Shown in pieces: positions 5,779-42,110 of a stretch of DNA of 42,110 nt. The notes below the pieces were generated by a model. It had not been told where the DNA came from. It ran no database searches and saw nothing but the letters and a program-made list of their open reading frames with translations. Where the stretch lies: positions 1 to 42,110 of the forward strand of contig NW_021835162.1 of NCBI RefSeq assembly GCF_006345805.1, given 5' to 3'. Origin of the DNA: Octopus sinensis. Lineage: Eukaryota. The translations under genes were made by a program, and so were the position numbers. Every line of letters begins with the position of its first letter. The first letter of the stretch is position 1.

Positions 5779-6657
5779 TTATGTTCAATTTTCTTGATTT
5801 TATACTATTCGGGGAATAATCAACGATGGAAATATTAATAAATATTACTGGCTTGTAAAATATCAAGGATACTGCTGGGATTTAAACGTTTTTAAATAAT
5901 TAATGAAATTCTTGCCTATAGAACATAGATTAGGACTGTTGTCCCTACTCCATCATTAAGGTTGTAATTTGCATATAGCGTTAAAAATATATTATTCTAC
6001 TCTAAAGACAGTCAAAATTAATGACAGAACTGCATAAGCCCTACCTCCAAAAATTGTACTGTATAATGGACTTGATGTAATTAGGAGTGCAAAAACTAAC
6101 AAAAATGAGACTGGGCTTTATAAATATCTACTGCAGAGGTAGTATAGACATACAGATATGTGCCACAACACAGAAATTTCTGAGTACTGTTCACATAATA
6201 GGAATTGATCTCTTCTGAGCGTAACCGTGCCACTAATCATTAAGCAATTATGTTTAAAATAAGCCGCGGCTCCTTTCAAGGTAGACAACGCACAATCCTG
6301 CCACTATTCATACAAAATGACCTGAAAATGCTGAAATCCTATCAAAAAAGACTGCCGACCTCCGACAGATCGCAACCTCAGGAGATTTACTACAAAACCA
6401 TCCAAGTACCTGGTTACGAATAGGCAACTTTCCCACAGCGATGTATGTAATAAAAAGTTCGATCGAGTCTAAAATTAGTCAAAATTGACCACGATAATAG
6501 ACACTACTGTCGATGCCACGTTCACATTCTTTTTTTCCGTAATAATCTCACTGGTGAAATCTCCAGGATACACAGTCAGCAACGCAAGAATCTCGAAAAC
6601 ACAACTAATTATTAGAGAAAACACAACTCCCAGACAAAAGAGAACAACGGAAAACAT
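5779..6657 (-). CDS. Putative multi-exon membrane protein (possibly PMP22/claudin-like), immediately downstream of UQCRC2
   Basis: Hydrophobic N-terminus (MFSVVLFCLGVVFSLIISCVFEILALL), a short GT-AG intron, then HTSLWESC (reminiscent of the claudin GLWxxC motif) and a later hydrophobic segment LLVFALLITSSPLYSTIFGGRAYAVLSLILTVF. Exon structure unresolved. Confidence 0.3.
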
Positions 6658-8360: not shown

Positions 8361-9408
8361 AAACCATATGACAAAACTAGAATTGATTTAAATAAATTTT
8401 TAACAATTATATTAATAGCAGTTCCTCAAAAATTATTATATAATATATCTCAGAATTGTTGCAGTCGAAAACCTTGTAGTTGAAATCAGTCTGCTTATAC
8501 GCAGTCGCGTGGTTGTAGGCCTTTGGCGTGCTCAGACTATTTCTTTACCCTAAATAATATCTCAACATGAATTGTGTGCTGGAATAGAGCAATTGTAGAT
8601 ATTTGAGTAAAGCAAGTAGTTATTTCTCTGTTTTATCATTCTTCAGAATTTGAAATTATTCTAACTAACCGGGCAGATGTAATGACTACGTGTTTTTAAT
8701 GACTATTTATGCTGTTTATTGTAGAGTAATGTTCTAGCAGTATTTTGTGAGTGCTGAGTTATATGCATCGGAGTTCTGTTTTTCGTGTTTTGAACAGAGA
8801 GATGTCGTATTAGTATGTCTAAAGTTGAAAAGCGTAGGCCGGACGTAATCTTGGGGCTGTAAAGCATATTTAGTAATCATAACTAATGTTAGATGTATGC
8901 CTACTCAAACACGTCCATTCCTAGTTCTTAATACTATTCAACAGACATGTAAAACAAACATAGTTGTAGTTCTAAATAGAGACTGTAGAGGAAAATATAA
9001 AATACGTGGAGGACTGAATTGAACATTTTGTTTTTTGGCCGGTCTTTGTATTAAATCTTGCCAGTTGTCCATTAATCTCTCAATAAATGTTATCAAAAAT
9101 GTTTATGTTACAATAAAAATGCGTGGGCTAGAAATCAAAAGTCGTACCCCAAAAGTCAAAAAGTGGGCCTATTGTAGTGAATCTGACAATACCTAAAAAA
9201 TAAAAAAATCAATTCTTAGAATATAATAAATAACCATTCGTGACATTGCTAATGATTTTTGTCAAAAAGTCAAAAACATAAATGTAAAAAAGAGACTTTC
9301 AAAAACAATAAATATAATTTAAAGTATCTTTACTTCTACTTAAAGGGAGCAAATTCGCAAAAGAAAGCCAAACCACATGAACCACAAAAATAATCAAAAC
9401 AGGAAAGC

Positions 9409-10216
9409 TTAAACGTCGTCTGTCGAGGAATCCTCCTCCGAGTCCTGTTCCTTTCGTCCTTGGAATATATCACTCAAAAAACACCCCAAAGATCCAAATT
9501 GTCCTTCATCAACTTAAGAATATTGGTAGCATCGTTGTTAGTGTTGTCCCAATCCTCGTCATAGTTCGCGTAGGCCTCCGCAAATGCCTCACTGGCCACC
9601 TGAATTGCCTTCTTGGGGTCATTCATGATCTCGTAGTAAAACACAGACAAGTTCAGAATCAGACCCAGTCTGACAATATTCTCAGGAGGCAAATCCTTCG
9701 ACAGAGTTTCTGCCCGGGAATATGCCTCTTTGCTGGCCTGGAGAAACTCCTCACTCGAAGGGACCACTTCAGCCACATATCGGTTATAGTCGCCTTTCCT
9801 GCAATATTACTGCACAATTCACATTTTATAGGCAAAGACTTGGACTTCCACCGAAGGAGACAGTTCTAATAGTCTATCGGCGTATTTGCAGGCCAGGTCT
9901 TTGGTCTCCATAATTTTCTCGACACAGAGAGCTCTGACCTCGGCAATAACCCTTGCCGCATTGTTGTCGGAGTACTCCTCCCTTACCACAATGACGTCCA
10001 ATGTGCGCACTGCGTTCCTGTATTGGGAAATTTTGTTTTTGCAGCAGGAGGAAAGGCAGCTTCGAACACTCTCGGAAACGTCAGTTAAAGTAGTGTCAGA
10101 AAGGAATTGTTCCAGTAATTCACAAGTATCTAAAAGTCGAGATAAACTTGCTGACCATTTGTACGGAAAACTTGGTCTGTGACAAAAATTCCCAATTCGA
10201 GATTGCTCCACATCAT
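9409..10216 (-). CDS. Divergent 14-3-3 protein, 4 exons
   Basis: Introns of 26, 24 and 26 nt give 244 codons containing KMKGDYNRYVAE, RLGLILNLSVFYYEI, ILKLMKDNLDLW and an acidic tail (RKEQDSEEDSSTDDV). Confidence 0.92.
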
Positions 10217-15549: not shown

Positions 15550-16442
15550 ATGGGAAAGACAGATGCTAAATATGCTGCTATAAAGAAAAAGAAAACGTAG
15601 TTTTAATCAACAATATAAATAGTATTGACCCCTTTTTGAGGAAGGAATGGTACAACGTGAGTGCTCCTCCCTATTTTGAGAACACAAAAATCGGAAAAAC
15701 TGTCGTAACAAAAACCACTGGAGAAAGTACCCGAGTCTTTGAAATTATTAGAACTCGCATCTGACAACTTGAAAGGGCGTTCATACAAAGTGTCTTTGGC
15801 AGATCTGGATAAAAGCGAGAATTTGTGCTACAAAATATTCCGTTTTGTGTGCGATTCCGTCGAAGGGAAGAACTGCTACACCTCCTTTGCCGGAATGGAC
15901 ACAACCCAAGACAAAAAACAAAGCATTGTCAAAAAATGGCACGTTGGCTTTATTTTGTGGACCTCCATTTAGACTTTGGTGGATGCCCACGCCTCCGCGA
16001 GCACAACCGACGGATATAAACTGCATTGCTTTATGGTGGGTTCTACGGGGAGGAACAAGAACCAGATCAAAAAGACCAGTTATTGTCAGAGGAGGCAAGT
16101 GAAGCGAATAAGGAAGGTGATGGTGGACACGATGACCAGAGGAATTGCGTCCTCCGACTTGGCTTCGTTTATCAAAATAATGTAATCATTCGGTTTTGAT
16201 TTTTAGTAAAGCAGAGGCGATGGCTAAGGATGTGATTAAACGGACAGAGAGGATCTATCCTTTGGGCAAGTTCTGTTGACTAAAGTCAAGGTTTTAAAGC
16301 GACCTAAATATGACAGTTTTTGTTTTGGTGAGTTGTAGAGTCTCAACTTGAACAACTGTATTCGACTGGTGCTGATGTTCAGCCTACGGTTGTGGATAGG
16401 CCTGTTGAGCACGTAGAACCTCCGATTCTTGATAAGGTTTAA
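15550..16442 (+). CDS. RPS3A: 40S ribosomal protein eS1 (S3a), 6 exons; one apparent 1-nt deletion at ~16264
   Basis: IDPFLRKEWY, LKGR..VSLADL, T.F.GMD.T.DK..S.VKKWHTLVDAH, IYPL..KVKVLKRPK and EPP. Introns at 15597-15622, 15727-15751, 15943-15972, 16182-16206 and 16316-16338. Spliced length 764 nt, one base short of a full frame. Confidence 0.95.
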
Positions 16443-18591: not shown

Positions 18592-19685
18592 TCAAACATC
18601 CTGATCGTCGAGTGACTCCCTACTACTGGGACCAGAAGTTCTCCTGTACTCAAGCAGATCAGTCTCGTCAACAAAAATAATATTTTCATACTCCCGAGGC
18701 ACTCTTATCGCACTAGGAGGATCTGCATTGGCCTCGTTCAGACTGACCACCGACCGAGACCTGACATACTGAAACTCCACATGCCGAGTACTGCTGTCGT
18801 TTCTCTCCCACGAAACGTGAATAAACGGTCTTTGCACATAATTATAAAACACTGCCACGATATGACAACGTTCTTACCCTCTGTCCGCCTGCTGGGGTAT
18901 GTCCTCACCCGATCACGTGTTGTGGGGTGGTCTTCGTGAACTATTTTGACTTTCTTAAAACCCCGCATTTCAAGGACTTGTTTGGCCATTATTCGGTTAT
19001 CTGCATATTTGAAAAATTTAGACATTTCTGTGTCGTGGATCACTTTTTGTTAATATAAAAGGATAAACCTTCCACTGGGTGATTAAATGGCCTCTCTCCT
19101 TCATCCAACTCGACATAATCCGAGTCCCGCATAATGGCTATATGACTCTCTCTTTCTCCCCTTAATTTTACTACCTCAATTTGAACCTTGCAGAGCAGTC
19201 TAGTAGTACTTTTAGTAATTGTGTATTCAAAAAGGCATCAAACCGTCCACGAGCCCCAATATTCGAAAATTCATGCAAAAGATCGCCTAAAAATCTATTT
19301 TATCTGCCAAACCCAAATTGTCACATCTAATCGTGGAACTATCAAATGGAATCATCAGGTAATCACACGCCTCTTTAATGTCCAAGAGAGAAAGAGCAGT
19401 TGGGCAGTAAATTGTGTCGTGGAAGTAAAAACCCTATGATTTAGTGGTCCTGTCTACCAGAGTGATTTCAAATATATCCGCAGGAATTCCAAAGCTAGCT
19501 CATACTCGCCATTCTCGTTTTTTACAATGTTATTTAGTTCTTGCTCATTGTTGAACATTCTAAGGTTTCTTTAGGAGTAGTTACCTTCCAAGCATAGAAT
19601 TGGGGTGACGTGTGAGGGCTGTGAGAGGGACGTCAAAACGACGGTGGTCGATTAGAAGTTTTACTACTTCTGAATTCGCAGACAT
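18592..19685 (-). CDS. BTBD10: BTB/POZ domain protein of the BTBD10/KCTD20 family, at least 7 exons; one apparent 1-nt deletion at ~19492
   Basis: PNSMLGRMF, NENGEYE, KEACDYL.I.F, LLHEFSN.GAR, GERE.HI, FFKY.DNR..AKQVL..RG.KK and FYNYVQRPFI..SWE...RHVEFQ.VRS. Six GT-AG introns of 24-26 nt. Confidence 0.9.
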
Positions 19686-21243: not shown

Positions 21244-22705
21244 CACTAAGTGCAAAAAAAACCGTTTTTTTAAATACGGCATATTTTGCAAAGATAACCG
21301 TGATTTTTCTTTGTCGATATCGAAAGGGATCGTTAAATTAACCCTAAATCAATTTTGTTATATTTTTTTTGTATTGTGTTATATGTCTAAATTAAAAATT
21401 TTAATTACACGAGCGCAATAAAAAACCGTTTATTCGGGTGAGTGTGACATTTTTTACTTTTTTTAGAATTTTAACCCTCGATAAAATTACGAATGCTTGA
21501 TGTAATAACAAAAGGAAAGATTCTAAGCTTGAATGCGTTAAATTGGACCACTAAAAAAATATCTGAAGAGCTTAATATCCCGCGATCAACTATCGCTGAC
21601 TTCATCCAAAAATTCATTAAATATGGTACGACTGAAAGAATGAAAGGTTCGGGGAGACCAAAAATTCTTAATAAGGACGATATCCTTATTTTACTCAACC
21701 TGATTAAAGAGGACCCCCAAAAAAAAGCTGATTGCTTAAGGAATGATCTCCGTAAAATAACCGGAAGAACAGTCGGTAAAAGATCCATCGCAAATTATTT
21801 AAGAAGGGAGCAAATATATGCTCGTGTATGTAGAAAAAAACCATTATTGAACAAAATAAATAGTGAAAAACGCTATAACATGGCAAAGCATTTCATTACT
21901 GTGGCAAACACTGAATGGATGAGGACAATTTTCAGTGACGAATGCAGTTTCGAAGTTTTTAATATTAAAAAACGGCAATATTGTTATCGGAAAAACAATA
22001 CAGACCTTCAAAAAAGCAACCTTTCGCCTACTGTAAAATTTGGTGGGGGGAAAGTTATGGTCTGGGGCTGTTTTTCCTATTACGGAATGGGCTCGCTTGC
22101 TTTTATACACGGGAATATGAATTCCGCACTTTATATCAACACACTATGTAACCATTTATGGGAATCTGCAAAAAATGGAGCTTAGTGACTTTATTTTCCA
22201 ACAAGACATGGCACCATGTCATACTTCCAAGATGACTATGCGATTTTTCAAGAAAAGAAAGTAAACCTTTTACCATGGGCACCTCAATCACCGGATTTAA
22301 ATCCGATCGAACATATATGGGCTCATATGAAGAGGGAATTAAACACCTTTCATCCAAAGAATGTTTCGGAATTGAAAGAAAAAATCGAAAATATTTGGAA
22401 TGAAATACCGATTAGTTTTATAAAAAAATTAATCGAAAGCATGCCGAATAGAGCACAAAAGCTTTTTAAGGCAAAAGGGGACCATATTGAATACTAACTT
22501 TAAATAATCAAAAATAAAACGGTTTTTTATTGCGCTTGATTTTTTGTTAGTTATAATTTGTTAAGTAAAAATGATTACAAGTTCAAATATAAAAATAAAA
22601 CTAGTGTTAAAAAATGATAAATTATTCAATTCTTTAATAAAAACAATATAGTTGCATAGTAAATTTTTGATATTTCGAAAAAAACGGTTTTTTTTGCACC
22701 TAGTG
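21244..22705 (+). mobile_element. Full-length Tc1 (DD34E) transposon with IR/DR-type ends
   Basis: TA|cactaagtgcaaaaaaaaccgttttttt ... aaaaaaacggttttttttgcacctagtg|TA. Inner repeats gcgcaataaaaaaccgttt (~21413) and aaacggttttttattgcgc (~22517). Confidence 0.92.
21493..22497 (+). CDS. Tc1 transposase, broken only by two 1-nt deletions in homopolymers
   Basis: Paired-like HTH, GSGRPK, FSDEC, VMVWGC and FQQDMAPCH...SPDLNPIE, with 34 residues between the second D and E after restoring bases at ~22172 and ~22246. Confidence 0.85.
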
Positions 22706-24215: not shown

Positions 24216-24772
24216 TTAGAAATAAATATTTTCAAAATTAATAAAAAGCAGCCCACGCTTTTTAAAAAAATCAAAGAACAAATAAATAAAATTCTGCTAT
24301 AAGAATATTAAGAATAGAACTTTCTATCAAAAAATAAAGTGAAATTCAATAAATAAAAATAAAGTGAACAGATTGAAAGAATAAACTCACAAATATTACA
24401 AAATGATGAAATTTCAGATAATTTATCCATTAAAAGAAACTGCATCTCAAAATATTCCTTCTAATCCAATTAAATAAAAATAAAGATCGACCAAATAATG
24501 TAGCAGGACAACAAGGTATTCCAACAGCGTGGTCACACGTGGCATAATTTATTAGGTTTTCTATTAATAATTCGGTAACTAAAAATTAAGATAATTTATT
24601 AAAGAAAAAAATATTATTTTAATTAAAACACACTTCTACTTAGTAATATAAAATTAAGTAAAATTTCATGTTTTAAAAATATTTGTGCCGTTCTATTATA
24701 CAATATTGGTGAGAAAATAAAAGACTCCTGAAATAGATTTAATGATAGCTACTGTAGAAAATTAATTAATGA

Positions 24773-25649
24773 CTAGAAAGCAAAGTCCTCATTGAGCCAA
24801 TTGGGATCCTCCATTGCGGAAGGAACCTAGAAATAAAAAACTGAAATCCAAACAAAGTTCATATCATACTGACGAGCATCCTGATTATAGACCATATCCG
24901 ACTCCTGTTCGTCCACATTTTCAACCTCCTCTACACGGTCTGTCTCCTCGACTTCTCTGTACAGAACATATCCACCATAACATCCCACGGACTTTGTCTA
25001 CTCAGAACTCCCTTAATTCTGAGGAACTCTCTGGACAACAAATACCACATCACCCCAATAGACTCCCTCCCCTACACACTCACTATGAACTACAACCTTG
25101 TTATTGCAGGGAATAACACAATCCACGTTATTGGGGTAGTTGTCACTGTCACAGAAAGCAATCACAATTATCCCCCGCATGGAGGCTTCCTTAATACACT
25201 GATGGTCCACTTGGGGATTGGCTACCACCAACACCAGGGGTTCCATGAATTGTTTCTACCAATAAGAAACATTCCCAGCCTGTCCCCGATTGGTGAACGA
25301 GCCGGGAGTGAATCTCTGGACGACAGAGGCAGATCCCGTGTAGCGGGCAAACTTGAGAGCTGCTCGCTGGGCCAGAATGTTCCCCCCCACAGCGACGATA
25401 TCTTTCGGGTTTTTGATGGCAACCATCAATCGAGCGGCGATTTGGATTTTCTCCCACATGAGGTGAATGTTTATTATGTTTGTCCCTTTTGATTATTAAA
25501 GTGAGTCCCCGAGTACCATCTGTGTTGGTGCTGTAAATATACCTTTCCATTTGTTTGTTAATGCTTGGAGAGGCGATGTGAGCCTTTGAAACAAGTATGA
25601 GTCTTACATCCTCGGGGGTTATTTTCATAAGATTACATCCACCAGACAT
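24773..25649 (-). CDS. RPSA: 40S ribosomal protein uS2 (SA), 5 coding exons; one apparent 1-nt deletion at ~24965
   Basis: [58 protein letters not shown] and PWDVMVD. Introns of 31, 24 (GC-AG, 25279-25256), 25 and 27 nt. Confidence 0.95.
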
Positions 25650-25678
25650 TCTTATCTAGCTACAAAATGCGTGCAAAT

Positions 25679-33909: not shown

Positions 33910-35881
33910 CAGGGGTCACCAAACTTTTTGCACTCGCGGGCCGGATTGACCCCAACACAATGAACGCGGGCCGGAGCACGTGCATAGGATTATAATTTTA
34001 CTAGAAATTCATAAGTGTGTTTTTTACAATAAAAACTAATTTAAACAAAAATAAAGTAAACAAAAATTTTAATGAGAGCTATGGAACTGTGATCTTTTTT
34101 TGATAAGTTCATCAATATTTGGTTTTAAATTGCTGCATCCTATCATGAGAATTGATTTTAAGTGTCCGTCAGTCAATCTTGCACGATGGGCAGACTTAAC
34201 ATATTTCATCCTCGAAAACGTTTGCTCACATTGGTAAGTTGTGCCAAATATAGAAATCATCTTTATCGCAAAATTCTTTAGTCTCGGAAACTCATCATCC
34301 TTGAGATATTCGTAGAACTCAGCGAGTTTGGTCCGTCTGTGACAATCTTTGAGCTGTTCATTTGATTGTAAGTCAATAACTTTTAATTGTAATTCATGTT
34401 GAACATTTTCAACATTACAAGAAAATGGATTTTCGAACAAAATTATATCGCTTTCAATTTTGTCAAGTTCAGAAAACTTATGTAAAAAATGATGTTTTAA
34501 TTCTTTGATAATTCCAATTTGGAAAGTAATGTCGATCTCATAACAGTTTGCCTCACAAAAACTTTTAAAACAAGAAAAGTGTGAAAACTGACGTACTCCA
34601 AGTTGTGACTCGAATAACATCAATTTTTGTCGAAATGCTTTAATTATCCTGTAGAAATCACAAATTAAGTTTTCCTTTCCTTGTAATTTCAGATTTAGCT
34701 CATTCATGTGAGTTGTAACATCAACCAAAAATGATAATTTTGATAGCCAAGCAAGATCTGATAATTCGGGATAATAGTTATTTTTACTGGTTAGAAAAAT
34801 ATCAATCTCACTTCGGAGTTTATAAAATCTATTTAATACATTACCACAGCTAAGCCATCTAACTGCAGTGTAATATGGTAAGTCAAAATATTCAGATCCA
34901 AAATCGTCAAGTAAAACTTTAAACTGACGGTGATTAAGTGAGCTCCCTCGAACAAAGTTTATTATGCGAATAACTGGATTCAACACACATGAAATATTAA
35001 GAGCCTTCGCACATAGTGCGTGCTGATGAAGGATGCAATGAATGAACAAAGTGTTTGAAATATGTAATTCCTCCAATTTATTAGTTATTTGCCCAACTAG
35101 ACCCTTTTTAGAACCAGCCATATTCTTTGCCCCGTCAATCGTAACACAACTCAGTTTCTCCCATTCAAGGTTATAGTCACTTATAGTTTGTTCCAATTCA
35201 TCAAAAATATCTTTTCCAGTGGTTGTTCCATGAATAGAACAAACAGATGCCAGTTCTTCAGTTATGGAAATATTCTCATCAACTCCACGAATAAAAATAA
35301 GAAGTTGCGATGTTCCCGAAATGTCAACTGACTCATCCAATGCAAGAGAATACCACAACATATTACTTGTCTTTTCACAAATTTGTAAATATATATTTTT
35401 TCCAAGCTCTTCAGTTCTCCGTGATACAGAACTCGCCGACAAACTTATTCCATCAAATAAGGAAGAATTTAGTGGGCACAAACAATTAACTGCTTCAATA
35501 ATGCAATTTTTGATATACATCCCATCACTAAAGGGTTTCCGTGTTGTGAAATAATTTTCGTTATCTCGTATCCAGCTCTTGTTACATTTTCATTATTTTC
35601 AAAATTTTTTTTTATAAGGCCTTGTTGAATTTGTAAAGTGCGTTTCAGTGATTCAACTTTATCCTCACGTAGCTTTCCAGTGTACTTGGAATATATCGGA
35701 GCATGATTCGTTTCATAATGACGTCGAATGTTATACTCCTTCATAACAGAGAGATGTTCGTGGCATATTAAACAATAATTATTAAGGTATTAATTGAATA
35801 TATTAAGGTATTAATTGAATATCTCGAAATAGTGCGCGGGCCGGATAAAATGTTGTCGCGGCCGTAGTTTGGTGACGTCTG
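33910..35881 (-). mobile_element. hAT (Charlie/SPIN-like) transposon nested in the pogo element
   Basis: TSD gtctatag at 33902-33909 and 35882-35889; TIRs caggggtcaccaaact / agtttggtgacgtctg; cgcgggccgg subterminal motifs. Confidence 0.93.
34069..35775 (-). CDS. hAT transposase (GTF2IRD2-like), one frameshift at ~35535, N-terminus apparently deleted
   Basis: CLIC..KEYNIRRHYETNH, LALDES, TIDGA, HCILH, VRWLS and CEQTFS; 483-aa uninterrupted ORF. Confidence 0.85.
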
Positions 35882-37619
35882 GTCTATAGTGAACAAAAGG
35901 AATCAAAATAACATTAAACAATATTAAAGTATAATTACAAAGATTATTTAGAGATTTTAATCATGTAATCGGTGATTTTTTGAGAATGATTAGTTTGATA
36001 ATTTCTTAAAATTTTTGTATTTCGTATACTTTTCCTCTTTGTTCATAATCATTCTCAAGAAACCATAATTCAAGTGCCTTCGCATATTCACTAGCTTCAT
36101 ATAGTGTCGGAACATAAATTTTTTCATCTTCTTCTTCAACTTGGTCTTGTTGTTTTAGTTTTCTCGCAAAGTTTTGTATAAAGTTTTCGTCGTCAATTTG
36201 ATCATTTGCATGAATCAAAAAATTTTCATCATCTATTTCTTCTATTTCTGTCAGGTTCTGTATTAACGCATTTTCAAATGCTTTCTTGAAACAATTTGTA
36301 ATTGTTAATTCCGACACTTCTAACCAAGCTTGTTTTATGAATATCAAGCAATTCAATAGAGTGAATTTCTTCAACTTTTCCGTAACTTTTTCGTGATCTA
36401 CATTGTCATCATTAGTATAAAATTCAATCAAGTGTGCACATAGGAGTTGTCTATACCTGTCTTTGAATGATTTATTATTCCTTGATCAAGGGGTTGTAAC
36501 TTCGATGTTGTATTTGGAGGGAAAAAAAAGAGTTCGATGTTACTGTTCTAATTTTCTATTAAGGCTTTCTGTAAAATTTTCAATCACAGAGGTTTCAAAA
36601 AATTGATTTTCCCCACATAAAGCACGGGAAGCAATGCAATATCGATTTTTAAATTTCTCAAGCCATCCATTTGATGCTTGAAATCCTTGAATATTACAAA
36701 CTTTCGCCATTTTTAGAGACATGGACTTCAAAAGATATTCATTGATTGTAAATCCAAATGATCGTTTTTTAACGAACCATTCAAATAGATCTCTGTCGAA
36801 TGGTTGTGACTTGGGCAAGTAAATTTTCTCCTTTATTGGTCATCTTGAACATTAAGAATTCCTTCAGAATTTTTCAAAATTTTGTTTATGCAGCCCAGAG
36901 AAACATTGAAATAAAGGGATAAATCGCGCTGTGTGTAATGTCTATTTTTATGATAAAATTCGATTATTTCCTTCACTGAAATGGAGCATATAGCTATATC
37001 TCTACACGAATATTCACACGGAGGAGTAAACAAATCAGAAAAGTCATTCGAAATTGTGAAGTATGTAAATTTGCCTGTCAATTGAAAGTTTTAATTCTTT
37101 TTAATTTTTAATGTAGATTGGTGATATGAATCATCATATCTTTGCTTTTTCTCGGAATGAAAGATTTCAACAACTTAAGATCACTTTTCTACCTATATGG
37201 ACATTGCAAAATTTTGCAATCAGATTCAAGAATGTATCTCTGAGAGATCTATGCGAAGGGTTCAATCTAGTTCAGATACATGGAAGACCAAACAATCCCC
37301 GTACACAGGGGATGGATAAATTCGAGTCTCCATTCTATCAGGAGGCTGAAATAATTAACATTTTATCAAATAATCGAGTCGAGGCAAATCAATCATTTTT
37401 ATTTAATAGATAAAATATGCTAAAGGAGAGATATGGAGGGTACCAATGGCAAGACTAAAAAATGATTAATTTTAATATTTTTTGTTAAAATGCATTATTC
37501 TTTCAAGTTATTCGATGATTAAAAATTGACATCTACAAGGTCAAAAATGTATGAAATATGAGTCTCCAAAAGTTCAGTTTGAATGTGTTGATTAATTTCG
37601 AAATCATTAATTCTTAATT

Positions 37620-39302: not shown

Positions 39303-41686
39303 ATGTTTAAAATTAGTCAATCTATTAATGCACATTCTGACGACGTAAGATGCATATTTATTGACTCTGCAACATCCTTTCTAACATGTTCAAGAGATAA
39401 ATATGCCAAAAAATACATTCTTAACTAGTATTTACAAACCTGTCAAATTCCCAGCCAATCTGGGCTATTTGAGGAACAGTACAGAACATTTGACCACCCA
39501 AAGTATGTTTCCTCAGTCTCCCATTTCCCCCCAAATACTCAATTCCCCAACGGCCTTGTTATAACAGCTTGTTACGATTCAAAAATAAGAGCATTTGATC
39601 TTACAAATCCAGAACCAATATTTACACTGAACAGTCATCGAGGAGAAGGCTCTAATCTAATATATATTTGATAGTATCATGCCTACATGTTCACAACTCA
39701 GTCTTGATAAGTGGATCGTTGGACTCTTCTGCCGTAGTTTGGTTTGATTTTAAAGAGAAATATCGACTGGAAGGCAATTTTGGTTTCTTAAGTCTTTAGG
39801 ACATTCACTTCCGGTGTGGGATGTGGCCATTTACAGGGATGAGTTATACCTGACTGCCTCTGCTGACAGGACTATCAAATTATGGGAGGGTTGTTCGTTA
39901 CGGGCTACTTTCTGGGGGCATTCTGATTGTGTGCGTGGGTTGTCGGTGGATGACGAATTGGACACCTTCTTTTCATGTTCGAACGACGGAACAGTCAAAT
40001 GCTGGACATATGAGTCAAATCAGAGTTTGGAGACTTACTATGGCCATACCAACTATGTGTATGGAGTACAGGGCAGAGGAGGGGATTCATTGGTGTCCTG
40101 TGGGGAAGACAGGTCTGTAAGGGTGTGGAAATGTGGGGAATGTGTGTCCACAGTTGTACTTCCCGTCCAATCTGTGTGGTCTGTTTCTTTTTTTCCAAAT
40201 GGAGACATTCTGACTGGCTCATCGTAGTTATCCTGGTCCATTTTAGTGATGGGATTGTCCGTATTTTTACCCAAGATCAAAGTCGGTATGCTAGTCCCAG
40301 AGATCAAGAGGCATTCTCCGCCGCAGTGGCTTCGATGAACATTCCAGCACAGATCGGGGACCTCTCCACTGAGGCTATTCGAGGAGAGGATTCACTGAGT
40401 GAGAGAGGTGGGTGTGCCCTTAGGAAATATTGCAGGGTCGAAGGAGGGGGAGATTCGAATGGTGAGAGAGGAGAGTGGAGATGTCCTCGCCTACAGTTGG
40501 TCGACCGTGGAGGAACGTTGGCTGAAGATAGGACGAGTAGTGGGGGCGAATGACAGTTCTAAGCAACTACATGAAGGCCGGGTGGTTTCCGTGTGTATCA
40601 GACACAGGAATATGATTATGTCTTTGATGTGGAGTTGGAGGAACTGCTTCCTGGACTCAGACTCAAATTGCCGTATAACATTGGTGAGTCTTATGAGGAG
40701 GCTGCCGACAGATTTGTGTCTGAAAATGACCTTCCTCAATTTTATAAAGAACAGATTGTCGACTTTCTTAAGGCGAATACTTCCAAAACTAATTCGAGTT
40801 TGACTTGGTTGTGTATTTTAGACAAATCAGCTGCGTGTACTGTATATTCTAATCTTCAGTTGGAGGCCATGTCGAGTTGTGTTGTGGGGATTATTTTGGC
40901 AGATAAGATCAAGGAGTTGTCTGATTTGGTCCCCTCTGAGTGGAGGATCAGTGATTTGGAGTGGAATGTTATTCGGGAGGTCGACAAATCGGTGGACTCA
41001 ATGCTTCCTGTGCTCAAAAAACTGATAAACTGGCCTGCAGGTGTTATATGTGGTGATGTGTGTTAGAATATATATTCCCTGTGGTGGATATGATGAGGTA
41101 TATCATGGCTGTGTTCCCCCAGGACATGTTTTTTGTGCTCAAAACTATTTTCCCCGACGAAGGCGAGTTGAGTGGTGTGCTTAGAGAGTGGTTTATTCAG
41201 GCAAGTAAAAGCAGATCTCCAATTCTCAAGTTTATTGCCAATGGACTGGCCTGTGTGAGGAGCAGGGAATATTTTGTGTGTTTGTTGGGTAAATTGAAAA
41301 GTTTGCTGTTTGAATTTGTGGGGTGGCCTGTGGGGGGACAGTCGTTCCCGGTCAATCTCGTATCCCCGTTTCTGACCGTGCTAGTCAATGCGGTCATTTC
41401 TGTCAGGTCACTGGGTGGAAGGGAGGACACTCGGGATGACCTTTCGACTCTTATGATATCCTTTCTTCGAGTTTATATCACTTTCCCTGAGAGGAAGGAT
41501 GAGAACGTGGTGACTGGGCTCAATGTTTTGGGGACTTTGCTTAGTGGGGACTCACGCTTGTCTGCTTTGGTGTTGAGTTCTCTCAACTTTGATGAGCTTT
41601 TGGGGGATATTATTGAATTAAATGTCGGTGGTGGGGCTGTAGCTGCTGCCAAGGAAGTTCGTTCGATTATTCAGAACTCCCTTTAG
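39303..41686 (+). CDS. PLAA: Phospholipase A2-activating protein / Doa1 (WD40-PFU-PUL), 10 exons
   Basis: Introns 39428-39454, 39649-39674 (GC), 39774-39799 (GC), 40224-40246, 40408-40435, 40582-40607, 40798-40821, 40876-40902 and 41041-41066 give an open 717-codon frame containing HSDDVR, SADRTIKLW, GHSDCVRGL, SCSNDG, GEDRSVRVW, EYDYVFDV..LKLPYN and WP.EYIFP..D. Confidence 0.93.
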
Positions 41687-41794: not shown

Positions 41795-42110
41795 ATGATC
41801 AAGTGGTTTGGACGTGGAGTTGAGTTGCTATTCAATCATCAGTCACTCCGATCTACCTCAAGCCATCAATTTTCAAGGCAAGTTTCTCTGAGGCTATAAA
41901 GCAGGCGTCACGCCATTGCCTTTCTGGGTAGCTCTTTGTGTACTCTGGGTGTCGGTCTGGGGACGTTTGCTTATGTAAATCCTACGCTTCATTCAAAGGT
42001 GGCTGGTTTATTAGAATCTTTGAAAAATATAAATATGGAAAAAATTGTTAATTTTTTTTAATTATCTTTAATTTTAGATTTCATTAAATTTATTGGAAAA
42101 TAAAAGTCAA
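41795..42110 (+). CDS. Partial gene: presequence-like N-terminus plus one TM helix (MIC60/mitofilin-like architecture, unconfirmed)
   Basis: ATG at 41795. The frame stays open only via a 27-nt AG|GCAAGT..cag intron (41878-41904), giving AIAFLGSSLCTLGVGLGTFAYVNP. Second intron near 42047; runs off the window. Confidence 0.45.

What the first reader, a model, noticed from the sequence alone, without database searches (positions are those of the whole stretch)
39649..39799. Two consecutive GC-AG mini-introns in PLAA; GC donors about 6-8% in this window
Seen: homology (LNSHRGE|VSCL; YRLE|GHSLPVW) requires GAAG|gctctaatctaatatatatttgatag and GAAG|gcaattttggtttcttaagtctttag, both 26 nt. With the RPSA intron (25279-25256) and a probable one at 41878-41904, 3-4 of ~50 introns start with GC, and all follow exonic AG. 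Established: GC donors are about 1% of introns in most animals and normally need a near-perfect GCAAGT. Here gctcta and gctggg do not match that. Inference: 5' splice-site recognition is relaxed and depends on exonic AG|G plus distance to the acceptor.
Basis: partly seen in the sequence, partly recalled or inferred. Interest (0 to 1): 0.7.

Follow-up and report, generated by a model that had tools for sequence, protein, structure and literature searches.

The report
GC-starting mini-introns in octopus parasite
In DNA that likely comes from a dicyemid parasite assembled along with its octopus host, about 1 in 20 of the tiny introns is predicted to start with GC instead of GT (about 1 in 100 in most animals), nearly always after an exon ending in AG and before an A, likely because an otherwise standard splicing machinery has stopped checking the letters further into the intron.

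Summary
Confirmed at DNA and homology level; no RNA evidence could be obtained. The window is a contig of a co-assembled parasite, likely a dicyemid, inside an octopus-type assembly. Both 26-nt PLAA introns are GC-AG: they score best among 720 and 656 alternatives, the rival GT donors lose 14.7 and 8 bits, a second haplotype has the same bases, and the host's PLAA has GT introns at the same positions and phase. A donor-blind spliced alignment of 10 dynein genes gives 16 GC to 306 GT donors (5.0%, CI 3.1-7.9). GC donors carry -1G 16/16, AG| 14/16 and +3A 15/16, but +5G only 3/16. In the AG|G_A context 25% of donors are GC, equal to the intron's C/(C+T), so +2 likely drifts freely there. GT donors show no selection for -1G. 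U1 5' end, U5 loop 1 and the U6 ACAGAGA box are canonical. AG|GC plus distance is not sufficient. This is a relaxed variant of U2-type GC-AG introns, with a precedent in copepod GA donors. The scan noted the same trait before on another piece of this genome (e1-10334387).

The parts
39303..41686 (+). PLAA/Doa1 gene (WD40, PFU and a likely PUL region), 8 predicted mini-introns of 23-28 nt
   Evidence: Open reading frame after splicing; WD40 and PFU Pfam hits; 18 orthologues
39649..39674 (+). GC-AG intron A, 26 nt, phase 1, AAG|gctcta; ancestral position
   Evidence: Best of 720 alternatives; donor-blind alignment; same in C8318; host PLAA has a GT intron at the same codon and phase
39774..39799 (+). 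GC-AG intron B, 26 nt, phase 1, AAG|gcaatt; ancestral position
   Evidence: Best of 656 alternatives; host PLAA has GAAG|gtatgc at the same place
39634..39635 (+). Rival GT donor for intron A (41 nt), rejected
   Evidence: 14.7 bits lower; removes the conserved His-containing stretch
39783..39784 (+). Rival GT donor for intron B (17 nt), rejected
   Evidence: 8.0 bits lower; shorter than any called dynein intron (minimum 22 nt)
39428..39454 (+). PLAA GT-AG intron 1 (27 nt, phase 2)
   Evidence: Removes a stop; host intron in the same phase and region. The donor-blind alignment preferred a donor 3 nt upstream
40224..40246 (+). PLAA GT-AG intron (23 nt, phase 2)
40408..40435 (+). PLAA GT-AG intron (28 nt, phase 1)
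40582..40607 (+). PLAA GT-AG intron (26 nt, phase 0)
40798..40821 (+). Possible PLAA GT-AG intron (24 nt, in frame, no stop)
   Evidence: Ab initio only; uncertain
41041..41066 (+). PLAA GT-AG intron (26 nt)
   Evidence: Needed for the frame; ab initio 0.97
25256..25279 (-). RPSA (uS2) GC-AG intron, 24 nt, phase 0, CAG|gctggg, ends in an in-frame TAG; ancestral position
   Evidence: Exons contiguous on PDB uS2 chains; identical in 4 copies; host RPSA has an acceptor at the same codon
41878..41904 (+). Probable GC-AG intron, AAG|gcaagt (acceptor 41904 or 41901), in a gene starting with a mitochondrial-presequence-like and a hydrophobic stretch
   Evidence: In-frame stop must be removed and the GT at 41882 shifts the frame; same in C8318; no homology test

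Best explanation
These are likely ordinary major-spliceosome introns at old positions whose donor has likely mutated from GT to GC; GC donors stand almost only behind an exonic G (mostly AG) and before A, and the spliceosome likely no longer needs intron positions +4 to +6. Shown: the GC donors, their ~5% share, the AG|GCA context without +5G, shared intron positions with the host, and canonical U1, U5 and U6 recognition motifs. Inferred: in a 22-34-nt intron a bare GT at a workable distance from branch point and AG is enough. A +2 C loses one U1 pair and a catalytic-site contact, and is tolerated when -2/-1 (U1 and U5 loop 1) and +3 close the mismatch on both sides; U6 ACAGA-box pairing at +5 is not needed to compensate. 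In that context +2 likely drifts as a free pyrimidine, so the 5% is a by-product of relaxed selection rather than a regulatory device.
For: 16 GC / 306 GT in 10 dynein genes; donor-blind calls gave 14 GC, 253 GT and 9 spread over 8 other dinucleotides, of 276. Context GC vs GT: -1G 16/16 vs 153/306; AG| 14/16 vs 96/306; +3A 15/16 vs 133/306; +5G 3/16 vs 79/306. Random GC near donors is AG|GCA in 7 of 206. AG|G_A class: 13 of 51 GC in dyneins and 7 of 32 in non-dynein ab initio calls, against an interior C/(C+T) of 0.25-0.27. Outside that class 3 of 271. Synonymous test: GC 7/7 G-ending codons (p=0.0013), GT 63/148, not different from background. U1 matches about equal in both classes (5.19 vs 4.90 of 9, p=0.27). 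Three of three testable window GC introns lie at host-shared positions. 15 of 15 parasite U1-like copies begin ACTTACCTG although the pattern allowed G there (4 checked with Rfam); U5 loop GCCUUUUAC in 4 of 4; U6 ACAGAGA in 2 of 2.
Against: No spliced read was seen. The AG|G_A class was picked after seeing the dynein data; the replication set is ab initio and noisy (that model missed intron A and invented one at 39734; its GC donors show AG| in only 9 of 15). n=16 is small and comes from one gene family. Intron A (gctcta) has only 3 of 9 U1 matches and does not fit the +3A rule. 37 exonic AGGCA...AG decoys are skipped, so a further signal is missing from the model. +5G is still twice background at GT donors (26% vs 13%), so U6 or U1 pairing there is weakened, not gone. 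Sequence alone cannot say whether U1 or U5 reads the exonic AG.
Confidence: 0.68

Rival explanations
1. The GC donors are consensus errors of a low-coverage parasite assembly (T lost or read as C).
For: The contigs do carry indel errors: a base missing in window RPSA relative to C9338, frameshift states used by the ab initio model, and a few called donors look like damaged GT sites.
Against: Loss of T would give GA about five times more often than GC (GTA 133 vs GTC 25), but GC:GA is 14:1. Errors would not pick AG|GCA. The sites are identical in independent haplotypes and copies.
Confidence: 0.04
2. A changed spliceosome part (a variant U1 with G opposite +2, or altered U1-70K, U1C, LUC7, SNRNP27K, METTL16 or PRP8) actively favours GC donors.
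For: Parasite U1 has an altered loop I and a trimmed last hairpin and falls below the Rfam cut-off (56-62.6 vs 69.5 bits); U6 has a shortened 5' hairpin.
Against: No U1-like copy with ACTTGCCTG among 15. GC reaches, but does not exceed, the neutral share in its best context. Protein factors were not examined, and U1 copies with other 5' changes would be missed by the pattern. This rival may be the cause beneath the best explanation rather than an alternative to it.
Confidence: 0.14
3. GC donors are kept by selection as weak, regulated sites (intron retention or alternative splicing).
For: GC donors are enriched in alternatively spliced genes of human, nematode and Arabidopsis (PMC3488318, passage). 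PLAA has two in a row.
Against: They are spread at 1-3 per gene over all 11 dynein genes, sit in housekeeping genes, and their share matches base composition.
Confidence: 0.08
4. The GC introns are recent introner-type insertions at AG|G target sites.
For: G follows the acceptor in 11 of 16 GC vs 141 of 306 GT introns (p=0.12).
Against: Three of three testable ones are at host-shared positions. GC introns share no word longer than 8 nt and have the same length as GT introns (26.7 vs 26.6).
Confidence: 0.03

Closest known systems
U2-type GC-AG introns (Sheth et al. 2006, PMC1557818, passages; Parker et al. 2025, PMC11732430, passages)
   Same: GC-AG ends, a compensating exonic -1G, GT/GC switching at conserved positions, major-spliceosome snRNAs.
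   Different: Share about 5% against 0.37-0.87% in five model species and 0.98% averaged over 489 animals. Human GC donors have both -1G and +5G; here +5G is 3 of 16 and AAGT 0 of 16.
Dicyemid and myxobolid ultra-short introns (PMC13644364, parts 1-2 of 3; PMC6543705, PMC6736024, PMC2222250, passages)
   Same: Length 22-35 nt, median 26; donor reduced to 'GTa'; genome GC about 36%; ancestral intron positions kept.
   Different: The text I saw reports no GC donors (0 occurrences of GC-AG in PMC13644364 and PMC6736024). The logos, the 2026 supplement and Ogino 2010 were not seen.
GA/GG donors of the copepod Eurytemora affinis (PMC5714493, part 1 of 2) and of Oikopleura dioica (PMC7072748)
   Same: A non-GT donor is tolerated with obligate exonic AG and nearly always +3A, the same compensating pattern.
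   Different: There +2 is A or G (about 12%), introns are long and described as recently gained, and GC-AG is 1.9% and 3.3%. Here +2 is C, introns are tiny and old, and GA is at most rare (2 unverified candidates).

Membership tests
U2-type GC-AG intron | GC...AG ends that restore a conserved reading frame | tested here: met
U2-type GC-AG intron | Removed from mRNA at these junctions | not testable with these tools
U2-type GC-AG intron | Major-spliceosome snRNAs with canonical recognition motifs present | tested here: met
   U1, U5 and U6 on parasite-type contigs; U2 and U4 not searched
U2-type GC-AG intron | Exonic compensation (-1G, -2A) | tested here: met
   16/16 and 14/16; synonymous test 7/7
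U2-type GC-AG intron (typical animal form) | Intronic compensation at +4 to +6, above all +5G | tested here: not met
   +4A 6/16, +5G 3/16, AGT 0/16, none different from GT donors
U12-type GC-AG intron | GCATCC donor and U12 branch box | tested here: not met
   None of the 4 window or 17 dynein GC donors reads GCATCC; motif
Dicyemid ultra-short introns | Length mostly under 30 nt, donor reduced to GTa | tested here: met
   22-35 nt, median 26; information at +4 to +6 about 0.1 bit
Dicyemid ultra-short introns | The DNA belongs to Dicyemida (marker gene or tree) | tested here: inconclusive
   Inferred from octopus-labelled host assembly, intron size, GC 35-38.5% and many axonemal-type dyneins; no dicyemid-named sequence was returned to compare
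Introner elements | New positions and families of similar intron sequences | tested here: not met

The most novel reading that the evidence does not exclude
This parasite's spliceosome has dropped U6 ACAGA-box checking of the intron side and reads a donor of about five letters (AG|GYA), with the nearly invariant +2 U turned into a free pyrimidine and occasionally a purine (AG|GAA candidates on C8320 and C8459). That would be the highest GC-donor share known in an animal, reached with unchanged U1, U5 and U6 motifs, and so would point to loss or change of a protein proofreader.
Probability: 0.25. Interest if true: 0.68.

Novelty: new variant of a known kind. Interest (0 to 1): 0.47.

Why it matters
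Why +2 of the intron is almost always U, and which of U1, U5 and U6 compensates when it is not, is an open question in splicing. Human GC donors need help on both sides (-1G and +5G). Here a whole animal genome appears to run GC donors on -1G and +3A alone, at the rate drift would give, with unchanged snRNA motifs. That separates exon-side from U6-side compensation in a natural system and predicts which protein factors should be altered. In practice, gene models that assume GT or a minimum intron size fail on this DNA: at 5% and about 6 introns per gene, roughly a quarter of genes would hold a GC intron (my arithmetic). It also flags parasite genes filed under the host's name.

Tried and rejected
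A homologue search with an RPSA exon found nothing at E<=1e-8; PDB chains were used instead. The public protein for the 14-3-3 region is a chimeric model that skips the mini-introns, so it gives no splice evidence. Competing-GT idea (GC used only where no GT gives an allowed length): no difference, 6 of 30 vs 159 of 774. U1 patterns with canonical loop I found only chance or repeat matches; the Rfam search returned host-type copies only. No shared upstream motif was evident before the U5 and U6 genes. GT/GC polymorphism between haplotypes: 0 of 40 donors differ between D133 and D141; one GT-to-GC difference lies in a broken copy and is uninformative. The GA candidate on C8320 has no second copy. 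The first ab initio run (760 kb) gave 31 GC of 780 but no AG enrichment at GC sites; I treat it as under-trained. The Atlas did not hold the protein downstream of 41878. Literature: 'Dicyema japonicum' + 'GC-AG' gave 0 papers; (listings only, apart from the papers named) showed no report of GC donors in dicyemids. Subscription papers such as Ogino 2010 are not searched.

Full report
What the window is. The window is the whole of contig C11633 in a 2.72-Gb assembly with chromosome-size contigs. It does not look like those chromosomes. Four neighbouring-number contigs and the host snRNA loci are mostly microsatellite-bearing and correlate 0.55-0.86 with the window's tetranucleotide profile, while two U6-bearing contigs correlate 0.96. 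The host has its own PLAA with kilobase introns on C10. A public database files a protein from the window's sister contig under an octopus name. Introns of 22-35 nt (median 26), GC of 35-38.5% and many dynein heavy chains match published dicyemid values: mean 26.2 nt (PMC2222250, passages), median 27 (PMC6543705, passages), GC 36.7% (PMC6736024, passages). The assignment to Dicyemida is inference; no named dicyemid sequence came back for comparison.

The four junctions. I built a profile from the 18 PLAA/Doa1 proteins among 120 listed hits and scored every stop-free in-frame excision of 14-60 nt with any ends: 720 for intron A, 656 for intron B. GC-AG was best in both, tied only with shifts giving the same protein without an AG end. 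The rival GT donors lost 14.7 bits (39634) and 8.0 bits (39783, a 17-nt intron). A spliced aligner with no donor preference found both again. The host's PLAA has GT introns at the same codons and phase (ACTG|gtaaat and GAAG|gtatgc), as it does for four other window PLAA introns; one host intron is absent from the window. The RPSA exons abut on PDB uS2 chains without a gap, and the host has an acceptor at the same codon. All four GC donors are identical on the second haplotype C8318, and the RPSA one in two more copies. The 41878 intron rests on frame logic only. No RNA run was listed, so excision is predicted, not seen.

How common. I fetched 20 dynein heavy chain loci and 150 homologues (the 78 of 2500 aa or more were ranked, the top 7 per gene used). 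Nine loci were left out as fragments or a haplotype duplicate, and 11 were aligned with all 16 donor dinucleotides equally allowed and AG fixed. Of 603 sites on the best paths, 358 had both flanks at 6 bits or more. Dropping D139 (97% identical to D149) left 331, of which 322 were called GT or GC at posterior 0.9 or more: 306 GT and 16 GC, 5.0% (CI 3.1-7.9; p=2e-7 against 1%). With no learned prior at all, 276 of 331 were decided: 253 GT, 14 GC and 9 over eight other dinucleotides. The share held at other flank cut-offs (22 of 387, 12 of 213). A self-trained gene model without exonic context, on 1.1 Mb, gave 98 of 1654 GC (5.9%) with every other dinucleotide under 5, and 15 GC, 475 GT and 2 others among high-confidence non-dynein calls (3.0%, biased low). 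That model makes errors in PLAA itself. I put the share at 3-6%. For comparison, the animal mean is 0.983% (PMC7072748 Table 1). Reading its 489-species table by eye, the highest GC-AG plus AT-AC shares are about 4.6% (Diaphorina, an annotation with many odd sites) and 3.3% (Oikopleura); no dicyemid is included. Those figures depend on each annotation.

The rule. GC against GT donors: -1G 16/16 vs 153/306, AG| 14/16 vs 96/306, +3A 15/16 vs 133/306; +4A, +5G and +6T do not differ, and AGT at +4 to +6 is 0/16. Human GC donors have both -1G and +5G, read as U5 loop 1 and the U6 ACAGA box jointly offsetting +2C (PMC11732430, passages; PMC1557818, passages). Here only the exon side and +3 compensate. 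The exonic demand is specific to GC: at phase-0 GT donors, K/E/Q codons end in G in 63 of 148 cases against 38.6% internally (p=0.35), at GC donors in 7 of 7. In the class AG|G_A, 13 of 51 dynein donors and 7 of 32 non-dynein ab initio donors are GC (pooled 20 of 83, CI 16-34%), against an intron-interior C/(C+T) of 0.25-0.27; outside the class it is 3 of 271. The class was defined on the dynein data, so only the second set is a test. Against a simple rule: GCT donors exist (6 of 31 pooled, and 2 of the 4 in the window); intron A has 3 of 9 U1 matches; 37 of 72 exonic AGGCA words have an AG 22-30 nt away and are not introns; and +5G is still twice background at GT donors.

The machinery. After three failed searches and a lead from scan note e1-10356699, a looser pattern that allowed ACTTGCCTG found 15 copies of a parasite U1 family, all ACTTACCTG. 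Four checked match Rfam U1 at E of 1e-14 to 8e-13, below the gathering score, with altered loop I and a trimmed last hairpin. U5 loop 1 (4 of 4) and the U6 ACAGAGA box (2 of 2) are canonical. A compensating base change in these motifs is therefore not the cause. Protein factors were not examined.

Mechanism. Most likely (0.68): an ordinary U2-type spliceosome defines these tiny introns largely by GT/AG, spacing and a weak branch A (the last from PMC13644364, parts 1-2 of 3; not tested here). Selection on +4 to +6 is weak. A T-to-C change at +2 survives where -2/-1 and +3 hold the site, and there it drifts to the background level. The pairing partners (U1 or U5) and the drift step are inferred. 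Rivals: an altered spliceosome part favouring GC (0.14), selection for regulated weak sites (0.08), assembly error (0.04; single-T loss would give GA about five times more often than GC, the reverse of what is seen), and introner insertion (0.03).

Comparison and novelty. It works like a U2-type GC-AG intron and meets the end, exonic and snRNA tests, but not the +5G compensation of typical animal GC donors. The compensating pattern (obligate exonic AG, +3A) is the one described for GA/GG donors in Eurytemora (PMC5714493, part 1 of 2), so the principle is known. The degenerate 'GTa' donor of dicyemids is published, but I found no report of GC donors in them (0 papers; listings; Ogino 2010, the sequence logos and the 2026 supplement were not seen and may bear on this). 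Other notes report rare TG acceptors (e1-9936715), which my AG-fixed models would miscall and which may account for some of the nine odd donors.

Verdict. Real feature, new variant of a known kind, interest 0.47. Spliced reads are the missing proof.

Noticed in passing
G000:C11633 (whole window) and C8318, C8459, C7755, C8702 and others: Many small contigs of this 2.72-Gb assembly are parasite DNA: no microsatellites, mini-introns, a shared Tc1-like element. The window is a rearranged second haplotype of part of C8318.
   Followed up: partly
window 9400-10213 (-) and about 18600-19040 (-): A public protein filed under an octopus name fuses the start of one parasite gene to the 14-3-3 gene and skips its mini-introns: host annotation mis-models these contigs.
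   Followed up: yes
L207-L210 (C8853, C10357, C8697, C12462): Parasite U1 snRNA, at least 15 copies in two or more sequence types; canonical 5' end and loop II, altered loop I (by recall the U1-70K site), trimmed last hairpin.
   Followed up: partly
L019 5102-5201, L020 4992-5091: Parasite-type U6 is 100 nt with a shortened 5' hairpin and an intact ACAGAGA box.
   Followed up: partly
L127 about 5837-5864 (-), and C8459 block: Two possible GA-AG introns, both AG|gaaa, one supported by homology; single copy, so an error is not excluded.
   Followed up: partly
dynein loci L143-L146, L151-L152, L157-L166: Many partial or transposon-broken dynein heavy chain copies, 91-99% identical to each other or to intact genes.
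   Followed up: no
dynein introns: 67% of called GT introns are phase 0, and 148 of 208 of those follow a K, E or Q codon against 20% background, a likely legacy of ancestral MAG|G sites.
   Followed up: partly
window 21250-22700, 34069-35589, 36006-36485: Tc1/mariner transposase with many near-identical copies, an hAT transposase and a DDE_1 fragment.
   Followed up: no
window 24757-25677 vs L206 and L211: Four RPSA copies on parasite contigs, two about 95% identical to the window; could be paralogues, further haplotypes or a second parasite population.
   Followed up: no
window about 24955-24990 (-) and 16250-16280 (+): Apparent single-base assembly errors in RPSA (a base present in C9338) and in RPS3A (frame break seen in the sequence).
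   Followed up: partly
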